Origin: an uncultured Rhodanobacteraceae bacterium
Lineage (GTDB): Bacteria > Pseudomonadota > Gammaproteobacteria > Xanthomonadales > Rhodanobacteraceae
Direction: 5' to 3'
Assembly (NCBI GenBank): GCA_964567365.1
Contig: CAZMMO010000001.1
Location: 4,511 to 47,490 of the forward strand
DNA: 42,980 nucleotides
The notes beneath the pieces are model-generated. The model saw only the letters and a list, made by a program, of their open reading frames with translations, made no database searches and was not told where the DNA came from. Positions 10,028 to 42,292 of the stretch are shown piece after piece. Made by a program: the position numbers and the translations under genes. Every line of letters starts with the position of its first letter. The stretch's first letter is position 1.

Positions 10028-10102
10028 GTAGGAGCGCACCCGGGCGCGACAGGCTTGAAGCGCATGGAACGCTGATGCCGTCGCGCCCGGGTGCGCTCCT
10101 AC
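10028..10102. repeat. REPIN copy 2 (opposite orientation to copy 1)
   Basis: Same 23-nt inverted arms; spacer is the reverse complement of a sequence resembling the copy 1 spacer. Confidence 0.9.
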
Positions 10103-10203
10103 AGCAACGGATTGCGTCGCACGATGAGCCGCTGCCGCTGCCGGCGCGGATGTCGGGATGCCTCGGCCATTCTATCTTTTACTCAAACAGCGTGGATTCG
10201 ATC

Positions 10204-11535: not shown

Positions 11536-11600
11536 TGTCCGCCGGCGCCCGGCTTGCCTCTGGCATGTATCGGGCAGGGACTCGTGGTCCCGCCTCCCCC

Positions 11601-11675
11601 GTAGGAGCGCACCCGGGTGCGACAGCATCCGCATTCAATGAGCCTCGAGGCCGTCGCGCCCGGGTGCGCTCCTAC
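11601..11675. repeat. REPIN copy 3
   Basis: GTAGGAGCGCACCCGGGTGCGAC ... GTCGCGCCCGGGTGCGCTCCTAC, 75 bp. Confidence 0.9.
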
Positions 11676-11753
11676 GAAAAGCGGGTCCGCTCGGGATCTC
11701 CGCATCTGACGCAACCTCGTGATGTGGACGGCCTTGAAGCTGTCATGGACACC

Positions 11754-24982: not shown

Positions 24983-26596
24983 TCATTGATGGTCAGCAAG
25001 TATCATGTCGGATGCTTTCTCGGCAATCATTATGGTTGGCGCATTCGTATTTCCGGACACAATATAGGGCATTATTGACGCGTCAACGACACGCAGACCT
25101 CTCAAGCCGCGTACACGCAACCGGCTGTCAGCGACCGCCATCGAATCCGTACCCATTTTGCAAGTGCCGACCGGATGATAGATGGACTGGCTGTTCAGCC
25201 GTGCCGCCTGCAGCAACTCGTCATCGCTCTGGTATTGCGAGCCGGGCGCGAATTCCGACACGATTTCTGTCGCAAGCGACGGTGCCTGGGTAATGCGTCG
25301 CGCCACTTTGATTGCGTCGACAGCGACCCTCTGGTCACGCTCGTCGTGCAGATAGTTTGCGCGGATCAACGGATGCCGCGTCGGATCGGATGATTGAATT
25401 GCGATCTCTCCCCGGCTATACGGCCGCAGTTGGCATACCGAGCTGGTGAAGGCAGAAAAGGGGTGTGCTCCCGCACCGGGTTCGTCTGCGCTCAGCGGTT
25501 GCATGTGGAACTGGATATCGGGCCGTACGACCGACGGATTCGACCGCGTGAATATGTACACCTGACTGGCTGCCATGGTGAGCGGCCCTGTACGGCTCAG
25601 CATATATTGAAGCCCCATGCGAACCCTCGAGAACAGGCTGTTGACCTCGTCATTCATGGTTTTGCTGCGCGTTGCGTATACAAGGCGGATTTGCAGATGG
25701 TCCTGAAGATTTTTTCCGACCCCTGGCAGATCTTGTAATACCGGAATCCCGACCTTGTCGAGCAGGGCGCTGGGCCCGATCCCCGACAGCTGAAGGATTT
25801 TTGGGGAGCCAACCGTACCGCCGGACAGGATGACCTCCTTGCCAGCTCGAGCTTGGTGTATTTTGCCTGCATGCCGGTATTCGACCCCAATGGCCCGTTT
25901 GCCCTCAAATAAAATACGCGTGACCATTGCATTCGTGATCGTGGACAGGTTCGTCCGCTTTCTCGCCGGTCGAAGAAAGGCTTTGGCTGTGCTGCAACGA
26001 AATCCCTTGGATGCGGTCTGCTGAAAATAGCCGGCACCTTCCTGTCTGGCACCGTTGCAGTCATCGTTGAAGGGGATTCCGATTTCAGTCGCCGCTGCAA
26101 TGAAACGATCGGCGATCGGGCGACGTATCCTGGGGTCGGATACTTTCAGCGGACCGCCCACGCCATGGAATGCATTGCCGCCATGCGCCTGGTCTTCGGA
26201 TTTCTTGAAGTAGGGCAAGATCTCGGCGAAACTCCAGCCGGTGTTGCCAAGTGCAGCCCAGTGATCGTAATCCTCGGGCTGTCCGCGCACGTACAGCAGG
26301 CCATTGAGTGAGCTGCTTCCGCCCAGTACTTTCCCCCTGGGCCATTGGATCCGGCGCCCGCCCACACTGTCGTCGGCTTCGGTCAGGTAGCACCAGTCGT
26401 ACCTGGGGTTGTGCATCGTCTTGAAGTAACCGACCGGGATATGGATCCAGATGTGGTTGTCCAGTCCACCGGCCTCCAGCAGAAGCACGCGACTTCTTGT
26501 GTCGGCCGACAATCGGTTGGCCAGGACGCAGCCCGCGGATCCCGCTCCGATGATGATGTAGTCGGCCGATTCCGTAATAGCGACGCTTTTTGTCAT
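24983..26596 (-). CDS. GMC oxidoreductase; by context a candidate isethionate dehydrogenase (IseJ-like)
   Basis: DYIIIGAGSAGC, RGKVLGGSSSLNG, VGKNLQDH, YHPVGTCKMG, GNTNAP; lies downstream of xsc and tauY. Family is secure; substrate is inferred. Confidence 0.85.
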   Translation of the reverse strand: MTKSVAITESADYIIIGAGSAGCVLANRLSADTRSRVLLLEAGGLDNHIWIHIPVGYFKTMHNPRYDWCYLTEADDSVGGRRIQWPRGKVLGGSSSLNGLLYVRGQPEDYDHWAALGNTGWSFAEILPYFKKSEDQAHGGNAFHGVGGPLKVSDPRIRRPIADRFIAAATEIGIPFNDDCNGARQEGAGYFQQTASKGFRCSTAKAFLRPARKRTNLSTITNAMVTRILFEGKRAIGVEYRHAGKIHQARAGKEVILSGGTVGSPKILQLSGIGPSALLDKVGIPVLQDLPGVGKNLQDHLQIRLVYATRSKTMNDEVNSLFSRVRMGLQYMLSRTGPLTMAASQVYIFTRSNPSVVRPDIQFHMQPLSADEPGAGAHPFSAFTSSVCQLRPYSRGEIAIQSSDPTRHPLIRANYLHDERDQRVAVDAIKVARRITQAPSLATEIVSEFAPGSQYQSDDELLQAARLNSQSIYHPVGTCKMGTDSMAVADSRLRVRGLRGLRVVDASIMPYIVSGNTNAPTIMIAEKASDMILADHQ

Positions 26597-26756
26597 CGGC
26601 ATGCCTGCTGGCAAGGATGCATGACGCCAAAATTCCTGCACGAATCAGTCGTCTGATACAAATGATCGGCTTCTGATGGGCCAAAGCCGCCGGACTCCCG
26701 GATTGCCCGGATGATGGGAAGATTCCGCCTGTAACAGTCGTCGGTCGAATGGCCGT

Positions 26757-28202
26757 TCAGAACACTTCGTCCTTGAGGTAGTACCAGCCATAAAGGAACC
26801 TTTGCCCAAGTCGACGATAGGGCGCCAAATGTTCCGACACGATCATGTCCCGGATATTTGGGAATGGCAATTTGGACTTGAAGATCGGAAGCGTCAATTC
26901 GCCGCCCTTGCCTGCAATGAGCTGAGCCAGCCGCTTTCCGGCCTGTGCGGAATACATGACGCCGTTGCCACCGTAACCTATCGCGTAATAAGTCGTTTGC
27001 GATGGATCGGGCTGATAGATGCGCGGCATCATGTCGTGACTGACGTCGACCCAGCCCCACCATGAATATTCAAACGGGATGCCGGTCAATGCCGGAAACT
27101 TTCGATACATGTCCCGCAGCAGCATATCCCGGTACTTCTCCTTGGACGCGGCATATCCGGTAATCGCGCTGCGGCTGCCAAATTGCAGCCGGTTGTCGGG
27201 CAGGAGCCGGTAGTAATGGCGCAATATCCGGGTGTCGGTCAGGACCTGTCGCGTCCTGAAATTGCAGGCGTCGATCTCGGCCTGTGTCAATGGACGGGTC
27301 ACCGCGTTGTTGGAGATGATCGGCATCAGGCGGTTCTTCAGCTCCGGATGCAATGTCTGCGAGGTATAGCCGCCCGTGGCGATTCCAACTGCCCGTGCCC
27401 GCACGATGCCGCCCGGAGTTCCCAGGTAGTGCACGCCGCCCCGTGTGTCCCAACTTTGGACCGGACTTGCGGGATGCACTTTTGCCCCCAGCATGCGGGC
27501 CTTCTCCAGATAGTTGAACGCAAGTTTGACGGGATGGATGCCGATGCCTTCCGGTTCGTGCAAGGCCCCGCAGGCCTCCTTGTCATCGACATATTCATGC
27601 CTGACTGTCGCCGCGTCGACGATTTGTGCATCGTAGTGAAAGGTTTCACGCAGCAGTCTGGCCTCTTTCTCAAGCGCGGCCATTCTTTTTTCCCTGTGCG
27701 CGATGAGCAGATGTCCGCCGGGCCGGGCATCACAGTCGACACCCTCGATCAGCTTCTTGAAATTTTCCATCCCCTCGACGCATTCGCGATGCAATGCAAG
27801 CGCAGTCTGCAGCCCATAACGTGCGATCCATTGCGAACGGCTCAGACGTCCCGAAGCGCACTGGGCCTGTCCTCCGTTACGGGTTGTGCACCCCCAGGCG
27901 ACACGATTCGCCTCCAGGACGGTGGCATGGATGCCATGTTCCTTTGCCAGATGGATGGCCGTTGCCAAGCCCGTGAATCCCGACCCGATGATTGCGACAT
28001 CGACGTCGACGTCTCCGGTGATGGGGCCATCGTCGGCGGGCGGGGAGCCTGCAGAAGCAACCCAATATGTCGGTGCGTACTCTTTCCCTTGCCCGGGATT
28101 CCGGTAGATCAACGGGTCGTAGGTCGGGTCATAGCTGTACAGGGCGGGAGTCGCGTTTGATCCTGGTACGAAATTGGATTGGGTTGAAGGGTTGGAAGAC
28201 AT
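26757..28202 (-). CDS. tauY: DAO-family flavoprotein, taurine dehydrogenase large subunit (TauY-like)
   Basis: YDPTYDPL...YAPTYW N-terminus, IIGSGFTG, WGCTTRNGGQAQ, GYGGNGVMYS; adjacent to xsc. Confidence 0.75.
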   Translation of the reverse strand: MSSNPSTQSNFVPGSNATPALYSYDPTYDPLIYRNPGQGKEYAPTYWVASAGSPPADDGPITGDVDVDVAIIGSGFTGLATAIHLAKEHGIHATVLEANRVAWGCTTRNGGQAQCASGRLSRSQWIARYGLQTALALHRECVEGMENFKKLIEGVDCDARPGGHLLIAHREKRMAALEKEARLLRETFHYDAQIVDAATVRHEYVDDKEACGALHEPEGIGIHPVKLAFNYLEKARMLGAKVHPASPVQSWDTRGGVHYLGTPGGIVRARAVGIATGGYTSQTLHPELKNRLMPIISNNAVTRPLTQAEIDACNFRTRQVLTDTRILRHYYRLLPDNRLQFGSRSAITGYAASKEKYRDMLLRDMYRKFPALTGIPFEYSWWGWVDVSHDMMPRIYQPDPSQTTYYAIGYGGNGVMYSAQAGKRLAQLIAGKGGELTLPIFKSKLPFPNIRDMIVSEHLAPYRRLGQRFLYGWYYLKDEVF

Positions 28203-28421
28203 GCTTGGGCAGTTCCTGAGAGGTGCTTCAATGGCAGCCTGCGTTGGACTTTCACAGTTGATGGGCCGGCGCCTGGACGCCATGGTCGGCGTCGTGGATC
28301 GGTATCCGGGTTCGATCGCCACCGGCCGATCCCGTGCCGGGCGTCCTCGACGATGGTCTTGCCATTCCAGAGTCCGGGCATGCCAACCGTGTGCAATCAA
28401 CGACAGAGGCATCGTTCCGGA

Positions 28422-28456
28422 TACTGGCGGACCAATCCGGGGACGACCCGCCAGTA
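28422..28456. other. Hairpin just downstream of xsc
   Basis: TACTGGCGG...CCGCCAGTA inverted repeat; no U-tract. Confidence 0.4.
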
Positions 28457-28484
28457 CGGGCTGATGTCGTCTGCGGCAATTTGC

Positions 28485-30305
28485 TCACACGTAGTCTTTG
28501 TATTTGTCGAGAAGGCGCACGGGTTTCGACAATGCGTCACGGCGGAACGGGTCGCCCAATTCACGGGTACACATGATCTCGAGAACGCAGGTTTTCCCAC
28601 TGCTCATCTGCATGTCGACCGCGCGTTTGAGTGCCGGCCCGACATCTTCAAGCTTGTCGACGACGATGCCCTCGGCCCCCATTGCCCGTGCAACCTGTGC
28701 GAAGCTCGGGTTTTCCAGCTCATCGGCCACGAAACGGCGGTTGTAGAAGTCGACCTGGTTTTTTTTCTCGGCACCCCATTGACGGTTATGAAAGACGACG
28801 GCGGTGACAGGAATGTTGTGGCGCACGCATGTCATCGTCTCCGCCATGCTCATGCCCCAGGCGCCATCTCCCACGTACGCCACGGCGGGCCGATGGGACG
28901 CGGCAACCTTGGCGCCGATGATCGTCGGAAAGGCGTACCCGCAGTTGCCGAAACTCATCGCTGCGAAAAAGCTGCGCGGCTTGTCAAAACGCAGATAGCT
29001 GTTGGCGATCGAATTGATGTTGCCAATGTCGGTGGATACCATGACATCGTCCGGGAGGGCCTTCTCGAGCTCGCGCAGCACCTGGCGCGGGTGCAGATAT
29101 TGCCCATTCGAGAAGGTCTTTTCGGCCGCGTTTTCCGCGATCATGTCCAGGCTGTACGGATCGCGTTCGTGGGTCCACTCGTCGAGCTCTTTTTCCCACG
29201 CGGCTTTCTCCTGCGCAATCTTCGACGCGCGTTCGCTCTTCGTGGCATCGCAGACAAGGGTGCGATCGTAAAGACGCTTGCCGAGCGCACTGGCAGCCGC
29301 CTTGGCGTCACCGCATATTCCCACCGCGATCTTCTTGACCAGTCCCAGCATCTTGTGGTCGGCGTCGATCTGGATGACCTTGGCATCCTTCGGCCAATAA
29401 TCCAGGCCGTGCTGCGGCAGCGTGCCAAACGGGCCCAGCCGCGTGCCGAGTGCGAGTACCACATCGGCTTGCGAAATGAGCTTCATCGCGGCTTTCGAGC
29501 CCTGGTAGCCGAGCGGGCCGCACCACAGTGGATGGCTGGCCGGAAACGAGTCGTTGTGGAGGTAACTGTTGACCACAGGAGCCCCCAGGCGCTCGGCCAG
29601 TGCCTTGCATTCTTCGACGGCGTCACCCATGACCACGCCGCCACCGGAAATGATCACCGGATTCTCCGCTTTGGACAGCAGATCCGCAGCTGCGTCCAGA
29701 CTTGCCTCACCGCCGGGTCCGCGATCCATGTGGAAGGGCTGCGGGATTTCGGTGGAAATCTCCCCGTAAAAGAAATCGCGTGGAATGTTCAGTTGCGTCG
29801 GGCCCATCTCGGACATCGCACGATCGAAGCAGCGTGCGGTGAACTCCGCCATGCGGGGCGGTATCGTCACATGGCCCTGGTATTTGGTGAATTCCTGGAA
29901 CATCGGCAACTGATCGCATTCCTGGAAACCGCCCAGGCCAATCGTGCCTGCACCGGTCTGCGGGGTTACGATGACTACGGGTGTATGTGCCCAGAAGGCC
30001 GCGGCGATTGCGGTCACGCAGTTGCTGATCCCGGGACCGTTCTGGCCGATGACGACACCATGTCGCCCCGACGCCCGTGCGTAGCCGTCGGCCATGTGCC
30101 CCGCGCCTTGCTCGTGTACCACCGGTATGAAACGGATACCGGCAGGCGTGAAGATGTCCATGGCGTCCATGAACGCTGAACCCATGATGCCGAATATTTC
30201 CGTTACCCCGTTGGCGACCAACGTTTCCACGAAGGCTTCGGATGGAGTCATCTTTTGCACTCCGCGAACAGTTGACTGGTTCTTGGCTCCCGATTGGTTA
30301 CTCAT
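28485..30305 (-). CDS. xsc: Sulfoacetaldehyde acetyltransferase (ThDP-dependent)
   Basis: MTPSEAFVETLVANGV, FGIMGSAFMDAMDIF, HEQGAGHMADGYAR, QNGPGISNC, GDGAWGMS...NRQWGAEKKNQVDFY, ELGDPFRRDAL. Confidence 0.93.
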   Translation of the reverse strand: MSNQSGAKNQSTVRGVQKMTPSEAFVETLVANGVTEIFGIMGSAFMDAMDIFTPAGIRFIPVVHEQGAGHMADGYARASGRHGVVIGQNGPGISNCVTAIAAAFWAHTPVVIVTPQTGAGTIGLGGFQECDQLPMFQEFTKYQGHVTIPPRMAEFTARCFDRAMSEMGPTQLNIPRDFFYGEISTEIPQPFHMDRGPGGEASLDAAADLLSKAENPVIISGGGVVMGDAVEECKALAERLGAPVVNSYLHNDSFPASHPLWCGPLGYQGSKAAMKLISQADVVLALGTRLGPFGTLPQHGLDYWPKDAKVIQIDADHKMLGLVKKIAVGICGDAKAAASALGKRLYDRTLVCDATKSERASKIAQEKAAWEKELDEWTHERDPYSLDMIAENAAEKTFSNGQYLHPRQVLRELEKALPDDVMVSTDIGNINSIANSYLRFDKPRSFFAAMSFGNCGYAFPTIIGAKVAASHRPAVAYVGDGAWGMSMAETMTCVRHNIPVTAVVFHNRQWGAEKKNQVDFYNRRFVADELENPSFAQVARAMGAEGIVVDKLEDVGPALKRAVDMQMSSGKTCVLEIMCTRELGDPFRRDALSKPVRLLDKYKDYV

Positions 30306-30800: not shown

Positions 30801-30836
30801 CAATAGCCAGAATGGGCCAATAATTGATACCAGATG
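30801..30836 (-). promoter_or_regulatory. MocR/TauR-type direct-repeat operator, copy 1 (upstream of xsc)
   Basis: Plus strand CAATAGCCAGAAT-N13-ATACCAGATG; CCAG repeats 23 nt apart. Confidence 0.8.
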
Positions 30837-30966: not shown

Positions 30967-32430
30967 TTATTGCCCCTTGCCCAGGATCAGATGATCGAGT
31001 TCCTCCTTGGACGCGTGTCGATAGTCGCCTCCGTATATTGCGAATATCACGCATCCAAGTATCAGCCATAACACAAGTGCAATCCATTCGGGTTTATGCA
31101 GCGCACCGGGTGATCCCGGGATTATCAGCAGGCAAATGAATGCGATGCTCACGATGGTGCCGATCAACGCCACCAGTTTCTGGCGTGGGCCCACCTTGCA
31201 CGAGATTTTCGTTGGGGTGCCGTTCTTCCAGGTGAAGGACTTGTAGGCCACCAGACTGTAATAAAGGAAGGCGACCGATACGCCGACGGCGGACATGTTC
31301 ACAACCCACAACAATATGGCGCGACCAAACCATGGTGCCGTCATGCAAACCACGCAACAGAACAGGATGCCTACGTAGGGCGTTCCATGTTTCCGGTGTA
31401 GGCAGGAAAACACGGGGGGGAGCGCCTTGGCTCGACTCATCGCAAACATGAGACGACTGGAAGATACATAAAAGCCGATCAGCCCCGTGAAAATGCCCAT
31501 GCACAGTGCCACGATCAGTACCACAAGGCCGGTACTGCCGAGCACCTGTTCGACCACGAAACCGGTGCCCCAGACCTCGTGCCTGGACACGAGGTGCTGC
31601 CACGGCATCGACGACCAGCCTGTGGCAATTATCATGATGGCGTACTGCAGGGCTGCCACACCCAGGGCTCCAAGGATCAGGGCCGTTGCCTTGCGCGGCG
31701 CAAAATTGAATTCTTCTGCGGTTTGCGGCACCGAATCGAAGCCGATGTAGGCCCAGGGCGATATGGCTACCATCGCGGCAATCGAATTCCAGATGCCGAC
31801 ATGGGGGTGAAAAGCCGGCTGCAGGTTCGAAAATGACGTCGACGGTGATACCGCCATACCGAGAAATACTGCCAGGGTGCCACCCAATAGCACCACGCAG
31901 AGCCAGAACTGGATGCGCCCGGAGGTGGCCGAGCCACGTATGGTCAACAGGGCAAAAACGACCAGGACCACGGTGACAAGGATGACTTCCACGATATAGA
32001 CATTCCAACCTGCGATGGGATAGAGATACCCCTGCTCGATGAGGTCCGGTGCCAGGAACCTGAACAGCAGACCCATCGCCGAGGCATTGAGCGCGATGAT
32101 CGCAATGTAGCCAAGAAGTAGAAACCATCCGCAAAAGAAGGCGTGGTACCTTCCAAAACCCAGATACGAGTAGGTAAACGCGCCCCCGGTAACGGGGTGT
32201 GCGCGAATCAGGTAGCCGGTACTGATGCCAATGGTGCTGAGCAGGATTGCCCCAATGGTGAAGCCAATGATCACTCCGGCAGGGCCGGCGGCCGACATCC
32301 ATGTCGCTGGCAAGACGAAGCTTCCCCATCCTATGGATGCGCCAAACGCAATCGCCCAGATCCAGATCGGCTTGAATGTCTTGTTCAGCTCCTTGCGTGA
32401 TGCATCCAGATGTTGTGCTTGTGCATTCAT
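30967..32430 (-). CDS. APC-family permease, candidate taurine/sulfonate transporter
   Basis: FGASIGWGSFV, TGGAFTY, WAYIGFD, SRLMFAM, about 12 TM segments; GGAGGGG RBS; inside the xsc-pta cluster. Confidence 0.85.
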   Translation of the reverse strand: MNAQAQHLDASRKELNKTFKPIWIWAIAFGASIGWGSFVLPATWMSAAGPAGVIIGFTIGAILLSTIGISTGYLIRAHPVTGGAFTYSYLGFGRYHAFFCGWFLLLGYIAIIALNASAMGLLFRFLAPDLIEQGYLYPIAGWNVYIVEVILVTVVLVVFALLTIRGSATSGRIQFWLCVVLLGGTLAVFLGMAVSPSTSFSNLQPAFHPHVGIWNSIAAMVAISPWAYIGFDSVPQTAEEFNFAPRKATALILGALGVAALQYAIMIIATGWSSMPWQHLVSRHEVWGTGFVVEQVLGSTGLVVLIVALCMGIFTGLIGFYVSSSRLMFAMSRAKALPPVFSCLHRKHGTPYVGILFCCVVCMTAPWFGRAILLWVVNMSAVGVSVAFLYYSLVAYKSFTWKNGTPTKISCKVGPRQKLVALIGTIVSIAFICLLIIPGSPGALHKPEWIALVLWLILGCVIFAIYGGDYRHASKEELDHLILGKGQ

Positions 32431-32563: not shown

Positions 32564-32599
32564 CAATAGCCAGAATATACGTTGGATGGATGCCAGACT
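32564..32599 (-). promoter_or_regulatory. MocR/TauR-type operator, copy 2 (upstream of permease 3)
   Basis: CAATAGCCAGAAT-N13-ATGCCAGACT; same 23-nt period. Confidence 0.75.
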
Positions 32600-32600
32600 G

Positions 32601-33638
32601 TCAGAGGGCCACCCCGGTCCGTGGCCGAGATGGCCTCTGATCCCGCGTCTGGCCCTGCACGACGGTGACTGCAATGGCATTGAACACGTCGTCGCTGCTG
32701 CAGCCGCGCGACAAGTCATTGGCCGGAAGTGCCAGTCCCTGCATCAGTGGCCCGACCGCGCTTGCACCCCCGAGCCGCTCGACGAGCTTGTAGCCGATGT
32801 TCCCGGAGTCGAGGTCTGGGAAAATCAGTACATTGGCCTTGCCGGCCACCCGGGGGTCGGAATGTTTGCGCGCGGCGATTGCGGGCACCAGCGCGGCATC
32901 CACCTGGACTCCACCGTCCACCGCCAGGCTCGGACAGCGTTCATGGACCAGCCGCGTGGCCTCGATGACTTTATCAACCCGCGAGTGGCTGGCGCTGCCG
33001 TGGGTGGAGAACGACAACATGGCTACGCGAGGCTCTTCTTCAAGCAATCTGCGTGCGCTGCCCGCCGCGGCCAGGGCAATTTCCGCCAGCTGCCCGGCAT
33101 CGGGTTCGACGACCAGGCCACAGTCGGCAAAGATCAGTGTTCGGCGCAACGGGTGCCAGGGCTGCGAGAAGGTCATCAAGAAGAAGCTTGAGACCAGTTT
33201 GAACGATGGGTCGAGCCCGATGATCCGGATGGCACTACGCACGACCTCCGCGGTAGTTCGCACTGCCCCCGACACTGAGCCATCGGCATACCCCAGACGC
33301 ACCATCAAATTTGCGAAACACAGCGGATCGCATGCCGCAACACGTGCTTCATCACGTGTCAGTCCCTTTTTCCCGCGTAATGCGAAAAGTTCCTCGGTGA
33401 ATTGTTCCATGTATTTCGACTTATCGGGATTGATGATTTCGATACCTGATAGGTGGATCGATTCCCGGTGAGCGGCTGCACCAATGCGTGATCGTGCGCC
33501 GATAAGCGTGATTCGGGCCGTGCCCGTGCGGCAGGCGCGTGCCGCCGCCCGTAGAATACGAGGATCATCACTTTCTGGTAAGACGATACGGCGCGGCGCC
33601 GCGCAAGCCTTATCGACGATACGATCCATGCAAATCAT
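32601..33638 (-). CDS. pta: Phosphate acetyltransferase (short form)
   Basis: [59 protein letters not shown]. Confidence 0.92.
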
Positions 33639-33656: not shown

Positions 33657-35312
33657 TCAATTCAGGCGAGAGAATTGGATACCGCCACTGCGCCCCTTGA
33701 ACAGCCAGAAATGGTTTGGTCCAAACGCCAGGGTGTATCGGCCTGCCGCATAGATGTTTGCGGCAAGGGGTCGAAGCCTGTAGGTATGGTTCGTATCCAA
33801 GCGATTGGGATTACTGCCAAATTTGTGCAGAACCAGCCGATTGCCTTTGGCCGTGATTGTCCAGGTGACCTGCAGGGCCCTAGAACGGTAGCGACCCACC
33901 CGGCGCCGCGGATTGATGGCCGGTTTCGTAGATACGCGATGTAAAACGCCGCCTTTCTTTCCGATCTTCAACTCGGGTGTGCCACGTGCGTCGGAGAGGT
34001 ACACGGTCGCGATACTCCCCACGAACTCACCGGGCTTGGTACCGCGCGACCAATCCGATACCCGTTGATGGACGGGGCCCATAAAAGCTTTGCCACGCCG
34101 GGTATTGATTCGCCACAGCATGCGGTGATCGGCCGATGCGTAGAAACCCCTGAATGCGAGCAATCGCGATCTCACATCCTTATCTTCGGCTTTGTCTCTG
34201 GGCGCCGGCTTCGGCAGTCTGGTCAAAACGATGCGTGCCATCTTTTTCGTACGCATGGTGGGGCGTGTATGCGCACCGTTGCAGAGAGTGATCAATCCCA
34301 GATGCCGCTGAGGATACAGCTCAAAATAAGACCGGAACCCCCAGCTTGAGCCGACATGGTGGATCCGTTTCAGGCCACGATAGTCGTCCACGATCAATCC
34401 CGCTGCGTAGTGGATTTGCTGACCATCCGTGAGCCGTCCCCGGGTCTCCAAGTCCTTGATGAGGGACGGTCCTCCTACGGCGGGGTGCTCGAAATTGCCA
34501 AGCCATTTCGCGAAGTCACCCAAGGTGGTGTTGACTGCGGTGTTGCCGAATGCCACCCGATTGAACTTGTGTACCCGATATTTTCCTCTCTTTGTTCTCG
34601 AGTAATTGCGTGAGCGATAGGGGATGATTTCCCACGGATTTGTGCGAATAAGGGTATGTGTCATGCCCAGAGGCCGGAAGATCCGCTCTGCCGCGAATCG
34701 GGGGAGTGTCTTGCCCGTCACCCGCTTTACGATTGCGGCGAGAAGCATGTAGTTCGAATTACTGTATTCGTACTCAGTACCGGGAGGAAAATTCAGATGT
34801 CGCTGGCGCTCGAGCATAGCCAGGGCATCTGCCTGGTTGATGCGGTCAACGTTCAGCACTCCGGCCATCGGCAACAGACCAGTTACATCACGGATGCCGC
34901 TGGTGTGGTTGAGTAATTCCCGTATGGTCACTGGTGCCTTGTATTCAGGGATTTTCGGTAGATATTTCTGGATGGGATCATCCAGGGAGAGCTTGCCCTC
35001 CGCTTTTAGCAACAGGATGCTTGCTGCTGTGAACTGCTTCGACAACGAACCGATTTCGAGTACGGTGTGGGTCGTCATCGGAACGCGTTGCCCAAGGTCC
35101 GCCATTCCGAAGGCGTTGGCGTAGACCAGATGGCCCTCCCGCACCACCCCTGCTACGCATCCGGGCGTATGGTTATTCATGTCGGCGAATACGGCGTTCA
35201 GTCGATTCTGCATGGAGGCTGGCATGCTCCCTGTCGTACCGCACAAAGCGGGACTTGCGGCCATTAATAATGCCGAGAACAGCAGGCCGCGTGCCCAAGG
35301 TAATTGATGCAT
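33657..35312 (-). CDS. Secreted serine hydrolase, beta-lactamase/D-aminopeptidase family, with C-terminal extension
   Basis: Signal peptide, SxxK (GSLSKQF), LLNHTSG, FPPGTEYEYSNSNY, HVG at the third motif; Lys/Arg-rich C-terminal half. Confidence 0.88.
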   Translation of the reverse strand: MHQLPWARGLLFSALLMAASPALCGTTGSMPASMQNRLNAVFADMNNHTPGCVAGVVREGHLVYANAFGMADLGQRVPMTTHTVLEIGSLSKQFTAASILLLKAEGKLSLDDPIQKYLPKIPEYKAPVTIRELLNHTSGIRDVTGLLPMAGVLNVDRINQADALAMLERQRHLNFPPGTEYEYSNSNYMLLAAIVKRVTGKTLPRFAAERIFRPLGMTHTLIRTNPWEIIPYRSRNYSRTKRGKYRVHKFNRVAFGNTAVNTTLGDFAKWLGNFEHPAVGGPSLIKDLETRGRLTDGQQIHYAAGLIVDDYRGLKRIHHVGSSWGFRSYFELYPQRHLGLITLCNGAHTRPTMRTKKMARIVLTRLPKPAPRDKAEDKDVRSRLLAFRGFYASADHRMLWRINTRRGKAFMGPVHQRVSDWSRGTKPGEFVGSIATVYLSDARGTPELKIGKKGGVLHRVSTKPAINPRRRVGRYRSRALQVTWTITAKGNRLVLHKFGSNPNRLDTNHTYRLRPLAANIYAAGRYTLAFGPNHFWLFKGRSGGIQFSRLN

Positions 35313-35342
35313 GATCGTGATCCCGTGTAAACGTATGATTGA

Positions 35343-35600
35343 CTATCCAAACCGATCGGCGTACCGCTCCGTGTATTGCGACTGTCTGGGATTGATGATT
35401 TCGATATCTGACAGATCGATCGATTCCCGGTGGGCCATTTTCTCGATATCCAACTGCGTTCCGAGCAGGGTGGTCCGGGTCACGCCCATGCGATGGGCGT
35501 GTGTCGCCGCTTGCAGGATGCGGGGGTCATTGCCCTCGGGCAAAACGATGCGGCGCGGTGCCATGCGCGCTTGATCAACGATACGGACCATACAGCTCAT
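35343..35600 (-). pseudogene. Truncated pta copy (N-terminal 85 codons)
   Basis: 49 of the first 80 residues identical to the full pta by hand alignment, no gaps; stops 30 nt before the hydrolase start. Confidence 0.85.
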
Positions 35601-35956
35601 GTTCCTGCTTTTTTCCATATCGACCTGGATGGCCCGTAGCGATGAATGACAGTAGCTCTGAAATGTCAGCGAACCGGCTTGAATATCCCCCCTTCCGGAT
35701 CAGACCCGTGATTTGCCTTGCATCGGGAATCAAAGTGGATTTTTGAGTACCTGTTGCAATGAGGCGAATCCATGTCATTCGGCAGCTGGTAAATATCATG
35801 GGTGACTAATGCACGTGCTTGAAAAACGGGGTTGCTCGAACTACTATCCAAGTGCCATCCAAGGTGATGCCCGAAAGGCATCCGCAGTTTTTGTCTGCCC
35901 ACGCATGGAGTCTTCTGGTTCACCCTTTAATCAATCGCGGAATCCGGATTGCTGGT

Positions 35957-35992
35957 CAATAGCCAGTATCGGTCCATGCCACATACCAGATG
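35957..35992 (-). promoter_or_regulatory. MocR/TauR-type operator, copy 3 (between pta fragment-hydrolase-pta unit and divergent regulator)
   Basis: CAATAGCCAGTAT-N13-ATACCAGATG. Confidence 0.8.
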
Positions 35993-36161
35993 TGGCCAAT
36001 CCATCAGGGAGCTCTCCCGTGGGTGTGCTCCGCGATGGACGCTGGTGCTGTCAGGGGCCACGCCGCCGAAATGCCGGGACTTGGCTGGAATTGGATCCTC
36101 CACGCAAGTCCCATTGGGTATACGCGATTCAATACACCATCGGCTTGTTCCGCTTTCTGTC

Positions 36162-37670
36162 ATGCGTACCAATCAGACTTACTGCACTCTGACCTTCAAT
36201 ATTCGTCACGATAGTGACGACTCCCTGTGGATCCAGGTATATCGGGGCATCATGCAGTTGATACGCTCCGGCCATCTCGATCACCGGACCCCCATGCCGT
36301 CGACCCGGGCGCTGTCACGTAGCCTTGGGGTTTCCCGGACCACCGTGGTGGCCGCGTACAACAAGCTGGTGGACGATGGCGTGTTGGTGGCCCGCTCCAG
36401 GAGCGCCTATTACGTGGTCGAATCCGGATGCGGAGTCGACCACATGCAGGGTCCGCCAGAGCATGCCGCGACGGAATTGCGCCCTGCGGGTCCGGGTGGC
36501 AGGTCGTGGACCGATCGCATCCGTATCGATGTATTGGGGCAAACGAACATATGCAAGCCGGACAAGTGGTTCCTGTACGACTATCCGTTCGTCTACGGGC
36601 AACCCGACGTTTCGCTGTTTCCTCTGGAAGAATGGCGGCAATGCATGGTCGATGCCCATTCCCGCATGTACCTTGCGGAATGGATGTTCGATACCATCGG
36701 CCGCGACTGCAAGCTTGTCCGCAGTTACATAAGGGACGAGATTCTTCCGCGTCGCGGGGTTTATGTCCGCGACGAAGACATCGTGGTCACGCTTGGGGCG
36801 CAGCAAGCCCTGTATTTGTTGGGGCATCTTCTCGTCAGGCCGGGAACCCGCGTGGGTATCGAGGAGCCGGGGTATCCCGATGCGAGGAACATATTTTCGA
36901 TATTTGGCGCCCTTCTCGAACCGGTGGGAATCGATGGTGAGGGCTTGCGGACCGAGGCTTTGCCGGACGGACTGGAATTCCTGTATGTCACTCCGAGCCA
37001 TCAGGTGCCAACCGGGGTCACCATGTCGGACCATCGGCGTGACGAGCTTATCAAGGCATCTTACGAAAAGGATTTTTTCCTGATCGAGGACGACTATGAC
37101 AGCGAAATGAACTTCGTTGCGCATCGGTCCCCGGCGTTGCGATCGCTGGACTCGAATCGGGTTTTTTATACGGGCAGCCTGTCGAAAACAATGTTTCCGG
37201 GGGTGCGCATCGGCTACGTGATTACGCCGGAGCCCAGCACCAAGGCGGTGATGGCGTTACGCAGGCTCATGATCAGGCAACCGCCCATGATCATGTCATT
37301 GGCGGCGGGCCTGTTTTTCCAGCGGGGGTATTACGACGCGTACATCCGCGCTTTGCACGAGACCCTCAGGAAAAAATGGGTAAGCATGGCCGATGGAGTG
37401 AAACGTTATCTTCCGGGAATGGTCGATACGGTGGCGTCCGGAGGAACATCCTTCTGGCTTCGTCTGCCGCGTGTCCCGAGCCTGGGATCGGCTCTCGATG
37501 ATCTGCGGCGGAAAGGCGTTCTGATCGAGGATGGAGATTCGTTTTTCATGAAAAATCCATCGGAAGAGTACTTCTCCAGACTCGGTTTCATGTCGATCGG
37601 CGAACGCGACATTGTCACGGGGTTGCAGTTGATGAACGAGATGTTCAGAAAGCACGGCCTTTTGTCCTGA
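36162..37670 (+). CDS. tauR: MocR/GabR-subfamily GntR regulator with PLP-binding domain (TauR-like)
   Basis: MPSTRALSRSLGVSRTTVVAAYNKL wHTH, YDYPFVYGQPD, YVTPSHQVPTG, IEDDYD, GSLSKTMFPGVRIGY; divergent from the sulfonate genes. Start approximate. Confidence 0.82.
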   Translation: MRTNQTYCTLTFNIRHDSDDSLWIQVYRGIMQLIRSGHLDHRTPMPSTRALSRSLGVSRTTVVAAYNKLVDDGVLVARSRSAYYVVESGCGVDHMQGPPEHAATELRPAGPGGRSWTDRIRIDVLGQTNICKPDKWFLYDYPFVYGQPDVSLFPLEEWRQCMVDAHSRMYLAEWMFDTIGRDCKLVRSYIRDEILPRRGVYVRDEDIVVTLGAQQALYLLGHLLVRPGTRVGIEEPGYPDARNIFSIFGALLEPVGIDGEGLRTEALPDGLEFLYVTPSHQVPTGVTMSDHRRDELIKASYEKDFFLIEDDYDSEMNFVAHRSPALRSLDSNRVFYTGSLSKTMFPGVRIGYVITPEPSTKAVMALRRLMIRQPPMIMSLAAGLFFQRGYYDAYIRALHETLRKKWVSMADGVKRYLPGMVDTVASGGTSFWLRLPRVPSLGSALDDLRRKGVLIEDGDSFFMKNPSEEYFSRLGFMSIGERDIVTGLQLMNEMFRKHGLLS

Positions 37671-37784
37671 CGGGAGGATCCGCCGTGCATCCCCGTTCGG
37701 GAAGGGAATGGGAACCGGGTTAAACCCGTCTTCGGATCCGTTTTCGTTTTCCCGGCCTGTCGGTCGCGTTCGGCTGGAGTGTGT

Positions 37785-39734
37785 TCATTCCAACGGCACG
37801 GTGATTCGGGTGATGCGGTCCGGCGTGCCCTCGATGCGTTCCAGGTGCGGGTAACGCAGGCCGCCGTGGTAGTCGATCTCCAGCGTTTCGTCGTGGCCGA
37901 AGTTTCTCGTGGACAGGCGCACGGGCGCGCGGGACTGGCGAGCGTTCCGAATCGCTTCGTGGAGGTTCTTGCGTGAAAACTTCTTCCCGTTTACGGCAGT
38001 GATCCGCATTCCGGGACTGAGCCCGGCCTTGAACGCCGGACCATTCCACAGCACGTCCACGACCTTTCCGTTCTTGGCCATGCTGGCTCCGATGGAATAC
38101 ATCTGGTTGGCGTATACCGCATCCCGCGATTCGGCATAGCCGAAGGCGTTCCTGGGCGCCTTGCGCGCCGCTTGCCACCGGGCCGACGGCTTGTTGGTAT
38201 ACACCAGCTTCCAGCCCCCCTGGGTCAAACCGTTCAAGTCGACGTGGTATTGCCTTGCGTCGAGGATATTGCGCAGGTAGGTTTTCCAATCGTAGGGCTG
38301 CACCTTGTCCAGGGCGGCGATGACATCATTGAAGGTGTAGGTGCTGGTGACGTGACTGCCGTTGTCCATGCCGAAGAACAGGCGTGCGAAGTCGTCCAGC
38401 GAATGCTTGCCATGGCTCAGCATCCTGATCCGGGTGTCCACGTCCAGCCACAGCAGGATGCCCTCGGCGTAGACGGCCGCTCCGCGTCGCCAGTTGGACC
38501 ATGCGTTTGGCTCGCGGTATTTGAGCCCGGTCGAGCTCGTCGCGTCCTGCAGGGATTCCCAGGTGCGTCCGGGAACATGATCGAGTCCCGCCGCGAACAT
38601 CGCCAGCGCCTGGCGGAATTCTCCGGATGTCATCAAGCCGCTGCGTGCGGCCATGACCTCCGACCAGTACTGGGTCAATCCTTCGTATACCCACAGCAGG
38701 TCGCCTTTCATGGGCGTCGTATTGAAATCGGGCGTCCACAGATCGGCGGGGCGCCGGAATTTTCCGTTCCATGAGTGCGTGTATTCGTGCGAAATCAGGT
38801 CCGCGCCGATCAGATAGGCATTCGGATCGCGAAAATAATCGGTCGACAGACTGTCATTGCTTGATTGGTGATGCTCGAGTCCCGTACGCCCCTTGTGGTT
38901 GGTGAGAGTCAGCAGTATGTGAAAACTGTCGTAGTGGTGCGACTGGAACATACGCGTTTCCTGCGTGACGAGGGCGCGGAAATTCTTGATTTGTTCCGGT
39001 GTGATATCGAGATCGTCCGCCGCGTCCGCAACCATGTCCAGATAGACGGGAGCGCTGTCGCCATGAGTCAGTTTGATCTGCTTGAAATGTCTCCCTGCAA
39101 TAATCGGGGAATCGACGAGATTGTTGAGTGTGACAGGGGCGAAATCCATCGCCGTTCCCGGACCGCTTCCGGTTCCATGGTGTGGTTGCAACGCGGTGGC
39201 GAAATGCCAGCCGTCAGGCAGCCGGACCGTGGGCTTGATCGTGATGGCGCTGGACGCATACCCTTTCGGATACAGGACCACCCGGTTCCATTCCAGGTTG
39301 AGCCATTCCGGAGTGGCGGCGATGGACCCCACGAGGCGGCGGCCGCGGACCGGTGGGAGGTAGTCGAATGTCACTTCCAGCTTCGATGCGCCGGCGGGCA
39401 CGTCGAGATGGAATGCGTACATGTCGACCCGGTCACGGTGCCAATCGAGGGTCTTCCCGTCAGCAACAAATTTCAACCCTGCAATCGCAAGAATCGTTCC
39501 GCTGGGCGAGTGGCTTCCGGGGATCCATTTCGGGTAATACAGAGTCAATGGGCCCGGTTTCACGGGTATGCTTTCGTGGACCGGGAAAACTCTTTGTTCA
39601 ACCCGCGTAAGGTCGATGCGCAGGTCGATGGTGCCTGGGTAGGATGGCGCGGTTGCCCTGGCCAGACCGGCATGACTCCATGCCAGGCAAACCAATACGA
39701 CGGCGAACGTGCATGCGAAGGATATTTTTTTCAA
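37785..39734 (-). CDS. Secreted M61 glycyl-aminopeptidase-family metallopeptidase with C-terminal PDZ domain
   Basis: Signal peptide, YPKWIPG, GLEH, HEYTHSWNGKFRRP zinc motif, LWVYEGLTQY, PDZ-like VLWNGPAFKAGLSPGMRITAVNG; TTG start. Confidence 0.9.
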   Translation of the reverse strand: MKKISFACTFAVVLVCLAWSHAGLARATAPSYPGTIDLRIDLTRVEQRVFPVHESIPVKPGPLTLYYPKWIPGSHSPSGTILAIAGLKFVADGKTLDWHRDRVDMYAFHLDVPAGASKLEVTFDYLPPVRGRRLVGSIAATPEWLNLEWNRVVLYPKGYASSAITIKPTVRLPDGWHFATALQPHHGTGSGPGTAMDFAPVTLNNLVDSPIIAGRHFKQIKLTHGDSAPVYLDMVADAADDLDITPEQIKNFRALVTQETRMFQSHHYDSFHILLTLTNHKGRTGLEHHQSSNDSLSTDYFRDPNAYLIGADLISHEYTHSWNGKFRRPADLWTPDFNTTPMKGDLLWVYEGLTQYWSEVMAARSGLMTSGEFRQALAMFAAGLDHVPGRTWESLQDATSSTGLKYREPNAWSNWRRGAAVYAEGILLWLDVDTRIRMLSHGKHSLDDFARLFFGMDNGSHVTSTYTFNDVIAALDKVQPYDWKTYLRNILDARQYHVDLNGLTQGGWKLVYTNKPSARWQAARKAPRNAFGYAESRDAVYANQMYSIGASMAKNGKVVDVLWNGPAFKAGLSPGMRITAVNGKKFSRKNLHEAIRNARQSRAPVRLSTRNFGHDETLEIDYHGGLRYPHLERIEGTPDRITRITVPLE

Positions 39735-39862: not shown

Positions 39863-39898
39863 CAATAGCCAGAATAGGTTGCGGCGGCATACCAGATG
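39863..39898 (-). promoter_or_regulatory. MocR/TauR-type operator, copy 4 (upstream of M61 peptidase)
   Basis: CAATAGCCAGAAT-N13-ATACCAGATG. Confidence 0.8.
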
Positions 39899-42009: not shown

Positions 42010-42136
42010 GTTCTCGAGTGTAGAACATCGTCCGGTGGGCGTCGTGTCGCCGGTCACGACATGAGCGGTGCGCGAAACCCCAGGCCGAACGCCACAACCC
42101 CCAATCGCACTGCGCCACAACCTCCAATCGCGCTGT

Positions 42137-42212
42137 GTAGGAGCGCACCTGGGCGCGACGGCCTCGAGGCCCGTTTGGGTGCTGAGGCCGTCGCGCCCAG
42201 GTGCGCTCCTAC
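42137..42212. repeat. REPIN copy 4
   Basis: Arms GTAGGAGCGCACCTGGGCGCGAC / GTCGCGCCCAGGTGCGCTCCTAC with a matched change in both arms. Confidence 0.9.
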
Positions 42213-42292
42213 GCAGTGGAGCAGCGTCCGTTCGCGGTGGGGTATCGAATCATGGGCGGCGTGCGAAGTTTGAAGCAGGCGACCTCCCACAC

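What the first reader, a model, noticed from the sequence alone, without database searches (positions are those of the whole stretch)
33657..39734. Candidate new enzymes that release taurine or isethionate from conjugates
Seen: a signal-peptide-bearing SxxK/YxN hydrolase 18 nt upstream of pta, with HVG at the third motif and a basic C-terminal half, plus a secreted M61 peptidase. Established: this serine-hydrolase family includes amidases, D-aminopeptidases and esterases; neither family is part of the usual tau/xsc gene set as far as I know. Inference: periplasmic cleavage of N-acyl-taurines, taurine-conjugated bile salts, aminoacyl/peptidyl-taurine or acyl-isethionates (including surfactants) feeds sulfoacetaldehyde catabolism.
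Basis: inference. Interest (0 to 1): 0.8.

Follow-up and report, generated by a model that had tools for sequence, protein, structure and literature searches.

The report
Taurine switch wired to secreted peptidases
In one soil bacterium, the taurine-breakdown genes and three peptide-cutting enzymes predicted to be secreted share a rare upstream DNA motif, which likely means taurine switches them on together and that the enzymes may free taurine from bound forms; no activity has been tested.

Summary
The window holds an S12 serine hydrolase (SLSK89, YSN183, HVG319, D-aminopeptidase three-domain fold) 18 nt before pta, and an M61 zinc aminopeptidase.

Xsc-pathway genes were found in 0 of 160 homologue loci, and 0 of 28 xsc loci carry S12 or M61. 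M61 homologues occur in 18 of 18 genus genomes, none of which has xsc.

A bipartite motif (YTGGYAT-N13-ATWYTGGCTATTG, a 23-nt direct repeat of MocR type) occurs six times in this genome and in 0 of 90 relatives. It lies upstream of xsc, the permease, the pta-stub/S12/pta unit, M61, an S10 carboxypeptidase cassette and a broken S10 gene. The adjacent regulator is TauR-like.

The S12 is under purifying selection, is more basic than all 267 homologues, and has a remodelled substrate pocket.

Best reading: a lineage-specific TauR regulon recruited secreted hydrolases. Co-regulation is likely (about 0.8). Release of taurine from amide conjugates is plausible but unshown (about 0.4). The main rival is that taurine acts only as a cue for peptide scavenging. 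Nothing here supports surfactants, bile salts or isethionate esters specifically.

The parts
39863..39895 (-). Operator-like box 1 (CTGGTAT-N13-ATTCTGGCTATTG), 129 nt upstream of M61
37785..39734 (-). M61 zinc aminopeptidase with predicted signal peptide and C-terminal PDZ-like domain
   Evidence: PF05299/PF17899; PDB 8j9c E 4e-168 over residues 26-644; motifs
36162..37670 (+). TauR-like MocR regulator, divergent from the pta-stub/S12/pta unit
   Evidence: GntR + aminotransferase domains; best plasmid hits 36-40%, several beside xsc, tauXY or tpa; at most 45% to any protein found
35957..35989 (-). Operator-like box 2, in the tauR / pta-stub intergenic region, 645 nt upstream of the S12 start
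35343..35600 (-). Truncated second pta (85 codons), 71% nt identical to the 5' end of the full pta
   Evidence: dN/dS 0.21 against full pta over 78 codons; 2 syn / 3 non-syn variants
33657..35312 (-). S12 serine hydrolase, D-aminopeptidase three-domain fold, predicted signal peptide, extremely basic
32601..33638 (-). Phosphate acetyltransferase Pta
   Evidence: TIGR00651 351.5 bits, cut-off 311.2
32564..32596 (-). Operator-like box 3, 134 nt upstream of the APC permease
30967..32430 (-). APC-family permease, candidate taurine or amino-acid importer; only distantly related to TauP/GabP
   Evidence: PF13520; 30% over 141 aa to the Caballeronia permease; best plasmid hits 44-46% in Staphylococcus
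30801..30833 (-). Operator-like box 4, 496 nt upstream of xsc
28485..30305 (-). Sulfoacetaldehyde acetyltransferase Xsc
   Evidence: TIGR03457 1062 bits, cut-off 676; 82-84% to Burkholderiaceae Xsc
26757..28202 (-). TauY-like taurine dehydrogenase large subunit; no tauX beside it
   Evidence: 56-64% to FAD oxidoreductases adjacent to NTF2-fold (TauX-type) genes; tauX not found
24983..26602 (-). IseJ-like GMC dehydrogenase (candidate isethionate dehydrogenase)
   Evidence: 68% to the GMC gene downstream of xsc-pta-iclR in Caballeronia

Best explanation
This is likely a TauR-controlled regulon, peculiar to one lineage, in which predicted secreted hydrolases (the S12 enzyme, M61 and an S10 carboxypeptidase elsewhere in the genome) would release taurine from amide-linked conjugates in the periplasm to feed the adjacent Xsc pathway. 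Shown: the genes, the shared motif at six upstream positions, its absence from 90 relatives, selection on S12, and S12's unusual charge and pocket. Inferred, in order: (1) the MocR protein binds the motif and activates these genes in response to taurine (about 0.8); (2) S12 acylates Ser89 on a taurine amide, its remodelled basic pocket accepting the sulfonate, while S10 and M61 trim acyl- or peptidyl-taurine from the C- and N-terminal sides (about 0.4-0.5 given step 1); (3) the APC permease imports taurine, TauY (and IseJ for isethionate) gives sulfoacetaldehyde, and Xsc and Pta give acetyl-CoA and sulfite, as established for these enzyme families. S12 appears to have entered the operon by an insertion or recombination that left a stub of a second, formerly functional pta under the promoter.
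For: Motif: 4 matches of ATWCTGGCTATTG in the window against 0.02 expected, found de novo as the top repeat family. All 4 lie on the minus strand upstream of minus-strand genes, one in the tauR divergon and one before xsc. Leave-one-out matrices recover each held-out site and reveal two more, on C38 and C514. With all six, scores are 41-47 bits and the next best in 2.63 Mb is 23.9. The two extra sites precede an S10 carboxypeptidase / CapA-MslH-like / alpha-beta hydrolase cassette and a broken S10 gene. The exact pattern occurs 6 times here and in 0 of 90 relatives, including all 18 genus genomes; xsc is in 1 of 400 other family genomes. The architecture (TGG core, direct repeat two helical turns apart) fits MocR operators, and TauR of R. 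capsulatus binds CTGGACYTAA repeats (PMC5320631, section 14 and passages). CTGG pairs 22-24 nt apart occur in 4 of 6 outside TauR-context promoter regions by script. Precedent: TauR regulons of Comamonadaceae include COG1574/COG523 genes (PMC5320631), and an amidohydrolase lies in tauR/tau clusters of Caballeronia and Novosphingobium. S12: 20 synonymous / 8 non-synonymous among 28 listed variants, and 11/7 using only near-identical contigs (p 0.0025 against an assumed neutral share of 0.27). Net charge +9.1 per 100 aa against a maximum of +2.9 in 267 homologues; the most basic of 185 signal-like ORFs in the genome. Pocket-loop changes W252R, Q254A, D257N, G320V and W323S are kept in a 95%-identical variant. 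No NaaS or Ntn bile-salt-hydrolase homologue was found in the genome (71% complete).
Against: No conserved linkage: 0 of 160 homologue loci (79 of them at least 10 kb) hit xsc, pta, tauR or tauY; 0 of 20 same-family loci have xsc, pta, tauY or iseJ; 0 of 28 xsc loci have S12 or M61. The nearest homologue with context (G994, 54% over 254 aa) sits between Vps10/BNR genes, and no xsc was found in its genome. M61 and S10 homologues are in 18 of 18 genus genomes and are usually multicopy. The S10 N-terminal half keeps the conserved motifs of its genus orthologues. The basic shift in S12 covers the whole protein, not just the pocket; D-aminopeptidase itself has Arg at the position of R252; and M61's charge is matched by an unboxed paralogue on C219. 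A matrix from the six sites does not find the tauR promoters of other species. A matrix from outside sites ranks the six only 11th to 2303rd of 5.3 million positions, about what any CTGG pair would get. The regulator is a long branch (at most 45% to anything), so its effector may have changed. tauX is missing from the island and was not found in the genome. An aminopeptidase, a carboxypeptidase, a D-peptidase fold and a peptide-epimerase-like protein together also fit plain peptide digestion.
Confidence: 0.42

Rival explanations
1. Taurine is a cue, not a product. TauR senses taurine as a sign of animal-derived matter and switches on general exopeptidases (amino-, carboxy- and D-peptidase, plus a peptide-epimerase-like protein) that digest ordinary peptides, while Xsc handles free taurine.
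For: The same motif evidence. Four of six boxes precede peptidase genes of families that every genus genome carries. The S10 N-terminal half looks conventional. The CapA-like gene scores 245 bits on the MslH peptide-epimerase model, far below its 700 cut-off. The genome has many S12 and M61 paralogues.
Against: It does not explain why S12 is more basic than 267 of 267 homologues and has a changed pocket, or why M61 lost near-invariant D420/F421 beside Tyr422 and D293/R295. In the regulon lists I read, TauR targets are sulfonate-pathway, transport or amidohydrolase genes, not general peptidases (PMC5320631, section 14).
Confidence: 0.3
2. S12 is a passenger. It was inserted into the pta gene by recombination and is read through, and the motif is a promoter element or the site of another regulator, so the hydrolases have no tie to sulfonates.
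For: The pta stub marks a rearrangement. There is no synteny in either direction. A 171-bp contig in run X2 carries the pta start with different upstream DNA (43 nt aligned), hinting at a form without S12. The right half of the motif ends in TTGA, like a -35 box. A second MocR exists on C120.
Against: M61, which is not in the operon, has its own box, as do two distant S10 genes. The motif is absent from 90 relatives that keep M61 and S10 but lack xsc. No box lies near the C120 MocR. S12 is under purifying selection. Sequence flanking the four window boxes is mostly unalike, which argues for selection on the box rather than recent duplication.
Confidence: 0.15
3. The regulon is real but S12 acts on a polyanionic polymer (D-Glu-rich peptide, teichoic-acid D-Ala ester, or a sulfonated polymer), and its positive surface serves polymer binding rather than sulfonate recognition in the pocket.
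For: The charge is spread over both halves. FmtA-type S12 enzymes are structural neighbours, and FmtA is a D-amino esterase of teichoic acids (PMC4752606, title and abstract start only). A dgcN-dgcA D-glutamate locus with two GGTs lies 8-28 kb away. A PGA_cap-family gene follows the boxed S10.
Against: The D-Glu/GGT locus has no box. There is no reason for TauR control unless the polymer contains taurine, which merges this with the best explanation.
Confidence: 0.13

Closest known systems
TauR regulons for taurine dissimilation via TauXY/Xsc/Pta (Suvorova and Rodionov 2016, PMC5320631)
   Same: MocR regulator divergent from its targets, direct-repeat TGG motif, xsc, pta, tauY, a permease; regulon content is known to vary widely.
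   Different: Operator sequence differs from CTGGACYTAA; the regulator is at most 45% identical to any protein found; no tauX, tauE or tauZ in the island; predicted targets include S12, M61 and S10 peptidases, none of which appears in the section or the supplement rows I read (32 of 79 TauR places).
N-acetyltaurine amidohydrolase NaaS cluster (annotation table in PMC4334477; COG1574/COG523 in TauR regulons)
   Same: A conjugate hydrolase co-located or co-regulated with taurine catabolism.
   Different: NaaS-type enzymes are metallo-amidohydrolases that come with an importer and a metallochaperone. Here the candidates are a serine hydrolase and peptidases predicted to be secreted, and no NaaS homologue was found.
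D-aminopeptidase of Ochrobactrum anthropi (PDB 1ei5, S12 family)
   Same: Three-domain fold over the whole length (TM 0.68/0.71; Z 27.8, 478 aligned, rmsd 4.6); Ser-Lys-Tyr-Asn-His-Gly catalytic set.
   Different: About 20% identity; 145 bits against the 443 cut-off of PRK13128; predicted signal peptide; D225/A226/G288/A290 replaced by N257/T258/V320/S322; strongly basic.
Bile salt hydrolases (Ntn cysteine type; metal-dependent mBSH, PMC13081988) and PTER (PMC11374699)
   Same: They hydrolyse taurine amides.
   Different: Unrelated folds. mBSH selects the sulfonate mainly through Ser/Gln/Asn hydrogen bonds and one His, so a basic surface is not required for sulfonate recognition.
M61 glycyl aminopeptidase (PDB 8j9c/8j9d)
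   Same: Full-length match, HEXXH+E and catalytic Tyr intact.
   Different: D420A and F421V beside Tyr422, D293N, R295S and Q151R at positions conserved in at least 85% of 119 homologues; carries an upstream box.

Membership tests
S12 serine hydrolase (PF00144) | SxxK, YxN and HxG/KTG motifs on a beta-lactamase-like fold | tested here: met
   213 bits, cut-off 27; motifs; fold
D-aminopeptidase (DAP) | Catalytic domain plus two C-terminal beta-barrels | tested here: met
   1ei5 aligned over model 27-551 and chain 3-519; top Foldseek hit
D-aminopeptidase (DAP) | Score above the equivalog cut-off (PRK13128) | tested here: not met
   144.8 against 443 bits
D-aminopeptidase (DAP) | Domain-C aspartate that binds the substrate amino group | tested here: inconclusive
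   A loop NPNRLD (501-506) is conserved in the nearest clade, but no residue-level alignment to DAP domain C was obtained
D-aminopeptidase (DAP) | D-stereospecific aminopeptidase activity | not testable with these tools
   needs an assay
Class C beta-lactamase | KTG third motif and equivalog score | tested here: not met
   HVG; 88.8 against 415 bits
M61 aminopeptidase | M61 N-terminal and catalytic domains, HEXXH+E, catalytic Tyr | tested here: met
TauR regulon | MocR regulator related to TauR and adjacent to taurine genes | tested here: met
   tree placement unresolved, long branch
TauR regulon | Direct-repeat operator upstream of targets | tested here: met
   six sites, 23-nt period
TauR regulon | Operator sequence matches known TauR consensus (CTGGACYTAA) | tested here: inconclusive
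   shared CTGG core and spacing only; cross-species matrices weak in both directions
TauR regulon | Regulator binds the sites and taurine induces the targets | not testable with these tools
   no RNA holder listed; needs an experiment
Known taurine-conjugate hydrolases (NaaS/amidohydrolase_3, Ntn BSH) | Metallo-amidohydrolase or Ntn fold | tested here: not met
   S12 and M61 are other families
Xsc pathway | Xsc and Pta above equivalog cut-offs | tested here: met
Xsc pathway | Complete taurine entry step (TauX with TauY, or Tpa) | tested here: inconclusive
   TauY-like gene present; tauX absent from the island and not found in a 71%-complete genome; Tpa not searched

The most novel reading that the evidence does not exclude
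The S12 protein is a serine-type taurine-amide hydrolase, a chemistry not found in the papers searched, evolved from a D-aminopeptidase-fold ancestor. It belongs to a taurine-induced kit of secreted hydrolases (S12, M61, S10, an MslH-like epimerase) that dismantles a taurine-capped peptide or lipid in soil.
Probability: 0.3. Interest if true: 0.8.

Novelty: new variant of a known kind. Interest (0 to 1): 0.6.

Why it matters
Much environmental taurine is bound in amides, and the bacterial enzymes described for freeing it in the papers I saw are metallo-amidohydrolases or Ntn cysteine hydrolases. A secreted serine hydrolase with that activity would add a third chemistry and a handle on unknown soil taurine conjugates. 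If the cue reading holds instead, it would be a case of a bacterium using taurine as a signal to switch on protein digestion. Either way the six boxes make the regulon directly testable. The limit is breadth: the arrangement is seen in one genome and one study, so it is not a general pathway branch.

Tried and rejected
Synteny as support: rejected. They returned 31-47% homologues, so the contexts of the nearest proteins (43-53%) stay unseen except for G994.

In those 160 loci, four had 26-30% hits to the NaaS-like amidohydrolase, one a 40% M61, one a GMC at about 30% and two GGTs; I read these as generic. One same-family locus had a partial MocR hit at 27-33% (L218).

An S12 gene about 9 kb from tauR in Novosphingobium is only 26% identical over 193 aa and of another type; not counted as linkage. 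G808, the one other family genome with xsc, has no S12 in its 11-kb xsc contig.

HVG as a diagnostic motif: rejected, since the middle position varies and a paralogue shares it. A sigma-54 reading of the motif: rejected by eye, since GG-N10-GC fits 2 of the 4 window sites. Sigma-70 and terminator scans were at chance level.

One search used a mis-spaced pattern (no hit even in the own genome) and is void; one search replaces it. The pattern found nothing in viral contigs. No RNA holder listed. The single-sequence model of the CapA-like protein failed (pLDDT 33) and was not used. The TauR tree was unresolved. The alternative flank seen upstream of pta in run X2 was not found in the genome. PF00174 sulfite dehydrogenase and PF02275 were not found (71% complete); a TauE-family gene without a box lies on C365. 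Paper searches gave nothing usable, and PMC4254191 passages gave no motif.


Full report
Setting. The window is on the longest contig of a 2.63-Mb, 545-contig genome, 71% complete. Its nearest named M61 relatives are Rhodanobacteraceae, so that family is my inference. The four runs that hold most of the region are soil metagenomes of one study. From about 25 to 40 kb the GC content falls to 54-61% against 66% for the genome. Third-position GC is 0.65-0.75 for tauY, xsc, permease, pta, S12, tauR and M61, against 0.85-0.92 for argH, proB, GGT1 and kynU. No Xsc orthologue was found in 60 relatives (best identity 35%), and only 1 of 400 other family genomes has one. The sulfonate genes are therefore a horizontally gained island.

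Observation. Gene order on the minus strand is M61, then tauR on the plus strand, then a pta stub, S12, pta, APC permease, xsc, tauY-like and iseJ-like. The stub was missed. It is 85 codons, 71% identical in DNA to the 5' end of the full pta, with dN/dS 0.21 between them. Most of that divergence arose under selection, so the stub comes from a second functional pta. Its current variants (2 synonymous, 3 non-synonymous, including L35P) fit decay, on small numbers. Contigs from four runs tile the arrangement; they may include the source sample. One 171-bp contig in run X2 matches the pta start for 43 nt and then diverges, which may be a form without S12; that flank was not found in the genome.

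What the S12 protein is. The best sequence and Foldseek match in the PDB is D-aminopeptidase 1ei5 (E 2e-31; TM 0.68/0.71; model pLDDT 76). VIA-align ranks several single-domain relatives higher by Z (ClbP, 2qmi, about 31), but aligns 1ei5 over residues 27-551. The basic C-terminal half is thus the pair of beta-barrels of that fold. It falls well below the D-aminopeptidase and class C beta-lactamase cut-offs. The nearest proteins are a 95% variant and then 43-53% homologues, the named ones from Acidobacteriota; a profile-free search of 1.84 billion representatives found none closer than 51%. No orthologue was found in 18 genus genomes (at most 36%). The genome has 15 ORFs scoring on the S12 profile. 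This one is an outlier: +9.1 charges per 100 residues against a maximum of +2.9 in 267 homologues, +3.4 in its paralogues, and the highest of 185 signal-like ORFs found by a rough filter. R252, A254, N257, V320 and S323 occur in 1, 0, 3, 0 and 3 of 122 homologues. They map to the DAP loops around W222, D225, A226, G288 and A290; PMC9053604 (passages; its numbering is partly offset) places Trp and Ala residues of these loops in the substrate pocket. Of the 40 variants listed (7 more were not shown), 28 fall in S12: 20 synonymous, 8 non-synonymous. The gene is maintained.

Of 160 homologue loci, none hit xsc, pta, tauR or tauY. None of 20 same-family loci has xsc, pta, tauY or iseJ, nor does the 40 kb around the nearest accessible homologue, whose genome gave no xsc. 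In reverse, none of 28 xsc loci (25 genomes, 3 plasmids; six cut short by contig ends) has S12, M61 or GGT. M61 homologues are in 18 of 18 genus genomes. On synteny alone I would have called both genes bystanders.

The evidence that changed the reading. The top repeat family in the island is a 37-nt element in four copies, against 0.02 expected for its 13-nt core. The copies lie 129 nt before M61, 357 nt before the stub (645 before S12), 134 nt before the permease and 496 nt before xsc, all on the coding strand. The element is a direct repeat, YTGGYAT-N13-ATWYTGGCTATTG, with CTGG cores 23 nt apart. Leave-one-out matrices recover each site and expose two more; nothing else in the genome scores above 23.9 bits against 41-47. 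The C38 site precedes an S10 carboxypeptidase (with an assembly gap), a PGA_cap/MslH-like protein and an alpha/beta hydrolase. The C514 site precedes a broken S10 gene. Four of six sites thus lead to peptidase genes. The pattern was built from these six, so the informative number is the control: 0 of 90 relatives, including all 18 genus genomes that have M61 and S10 but no xsc. The adjacent regulator's best plasmid hits are 36-40% identical; those I opened lie beside xsc, tauXY or tpa. PMC5320631 (passages, section 14, supplement rows for 32 of 79 TauR places) describes MocR operators as TGG-containing repeats two or three helical turns apart, gives CTGGACYTAA for R. capsulatus TauR, notes highly variable regulon content, and lists COG1574/COG523 genes in some TauR regulons. 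Outside TauR-context promoters show CTGG pairs 22-24 nt apart in 4 of 6 regions by script and by eye in a fifth. Cross-species matrices were weak in both directions, so the motif is TauR-like in architecture and position but not proven by sequence.

M61. It matches 8j9c over its whole length with metal ligands and Tyr422 intact. It differs at 27 columns conserved in at least 85% of 119 homologues, including D420A and F421V beside the Tyr, D293N and R295S. Some of these are shared with 8j9c (N146) or a paralogue (R151), and its charge is matched by an unboxed paralogue, so the case for retooling is weaker than for S12.

Mechanism. Most likely a divergent TauR activates six promoters. Secreted S12, with S10 and M61, would free taurine from amide conjugates in the periplasm. 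The permease would import it, and TauY/IseJ, Xsc and Pta would convert it to acetyl-CoA and sulfite. Motif, selection and charge are shown; binding, induction, localisation and every substrate are inferred. The strongest rival keeps the regulon but makes taurine a cue for peptide scavenging. The mBSH preprint (PMC13081988; passages and section 4; supplements not seen) shows that sulfonate selectivity can rest on Ser/Gln/Asn hydrogen bonds, so basicity is neither necessary nor sufficient. The missing tauX is unexplained.

Novelty. A search for TauR + xsc + peptidase found 0 papers. Searches on N-acyltaurine and N-acetyltaurine hydrolases listed NaaS, PTER and mBSH work, none naming an S12 enzyme in title or abstract start (listings only, plus passages of PMC4334477). 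The library lacks most subscription journals. Wiethaus 2008 and Denger 2011 were not read. Verdict: a new variant of a known regulon, real and testable, confined so far to one lineage; interest 0.6.

Noticed in passing
G000:C38:4317-8852 (L241): Boxed cassette of S10 carboxypeptidase, PGA_cap/MslH-like protein (not found in 18 genus genomes) and alpha/beta hydrolase, with low third-position GC, between a GH20 hexosaminidase and a native-looking APC permease. An inverted partial box (GGGCTATTGG) lies between S10 and the CapA-like gene.
   Followed up: partly
G000:C514:300-1111 (L240): Boxed but broken S10 gene, followed by the start of a gene that looks like a class III alcohol dehydrogenase (judged by eye). 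Its promoter region resembles that of C38 beyond the box.
   Followed up: partly
window:5332-24797: Two GGT genes (79% nt identical), dgcN-dgcA (both above NCBIfam cut-offs, D-glutamate catabolism), two APC permeases (80% nt identical) and three TonB-dependent receptors: a likely gamma-glutamyl / D-glutamate scavenging locus. No box. The second GGT follows iseJ on the same strand and could act on gamma-glutamyl-taurine, but its codon usage is host-like.
   Followed up: no
window:26602-26757 and 28202-28485: TauY-like gene has no tauX on either side; tauX was not found in the genome.
   Followed up: partly
window:33619-33661: A 171-bp contig in run X2 carries the pta start but different upstream DNA, possibly a population form without S12.
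   Followed up: partly
window:5199-5279, 10028-10104, 11597-11676, 42133-42216: Four copies of an approximately 78-nt palindromic REP-like element between genes, with very high contig depth at the 42.1-kb copy.
   Followed up: no
L250 / L252 (NZ_CP009292.1:568305-582559): Novosphingobium pentaromativorans plasmid cluster tauR / tpa-like aminotransferase / permease / TonB receptor / NaaS-like amidohydrolase / tauE: a candidate taurine-conjugate uptake locus, with an unrelated S12 esterase-type gene downstream.
   Followed up: partly
window:30967-32430: The permease's best plasmid hits are Staphylococcus APC permeases (44-46%), not TauP/GabP: a possible new taurine transporter type.
   Followed up: no
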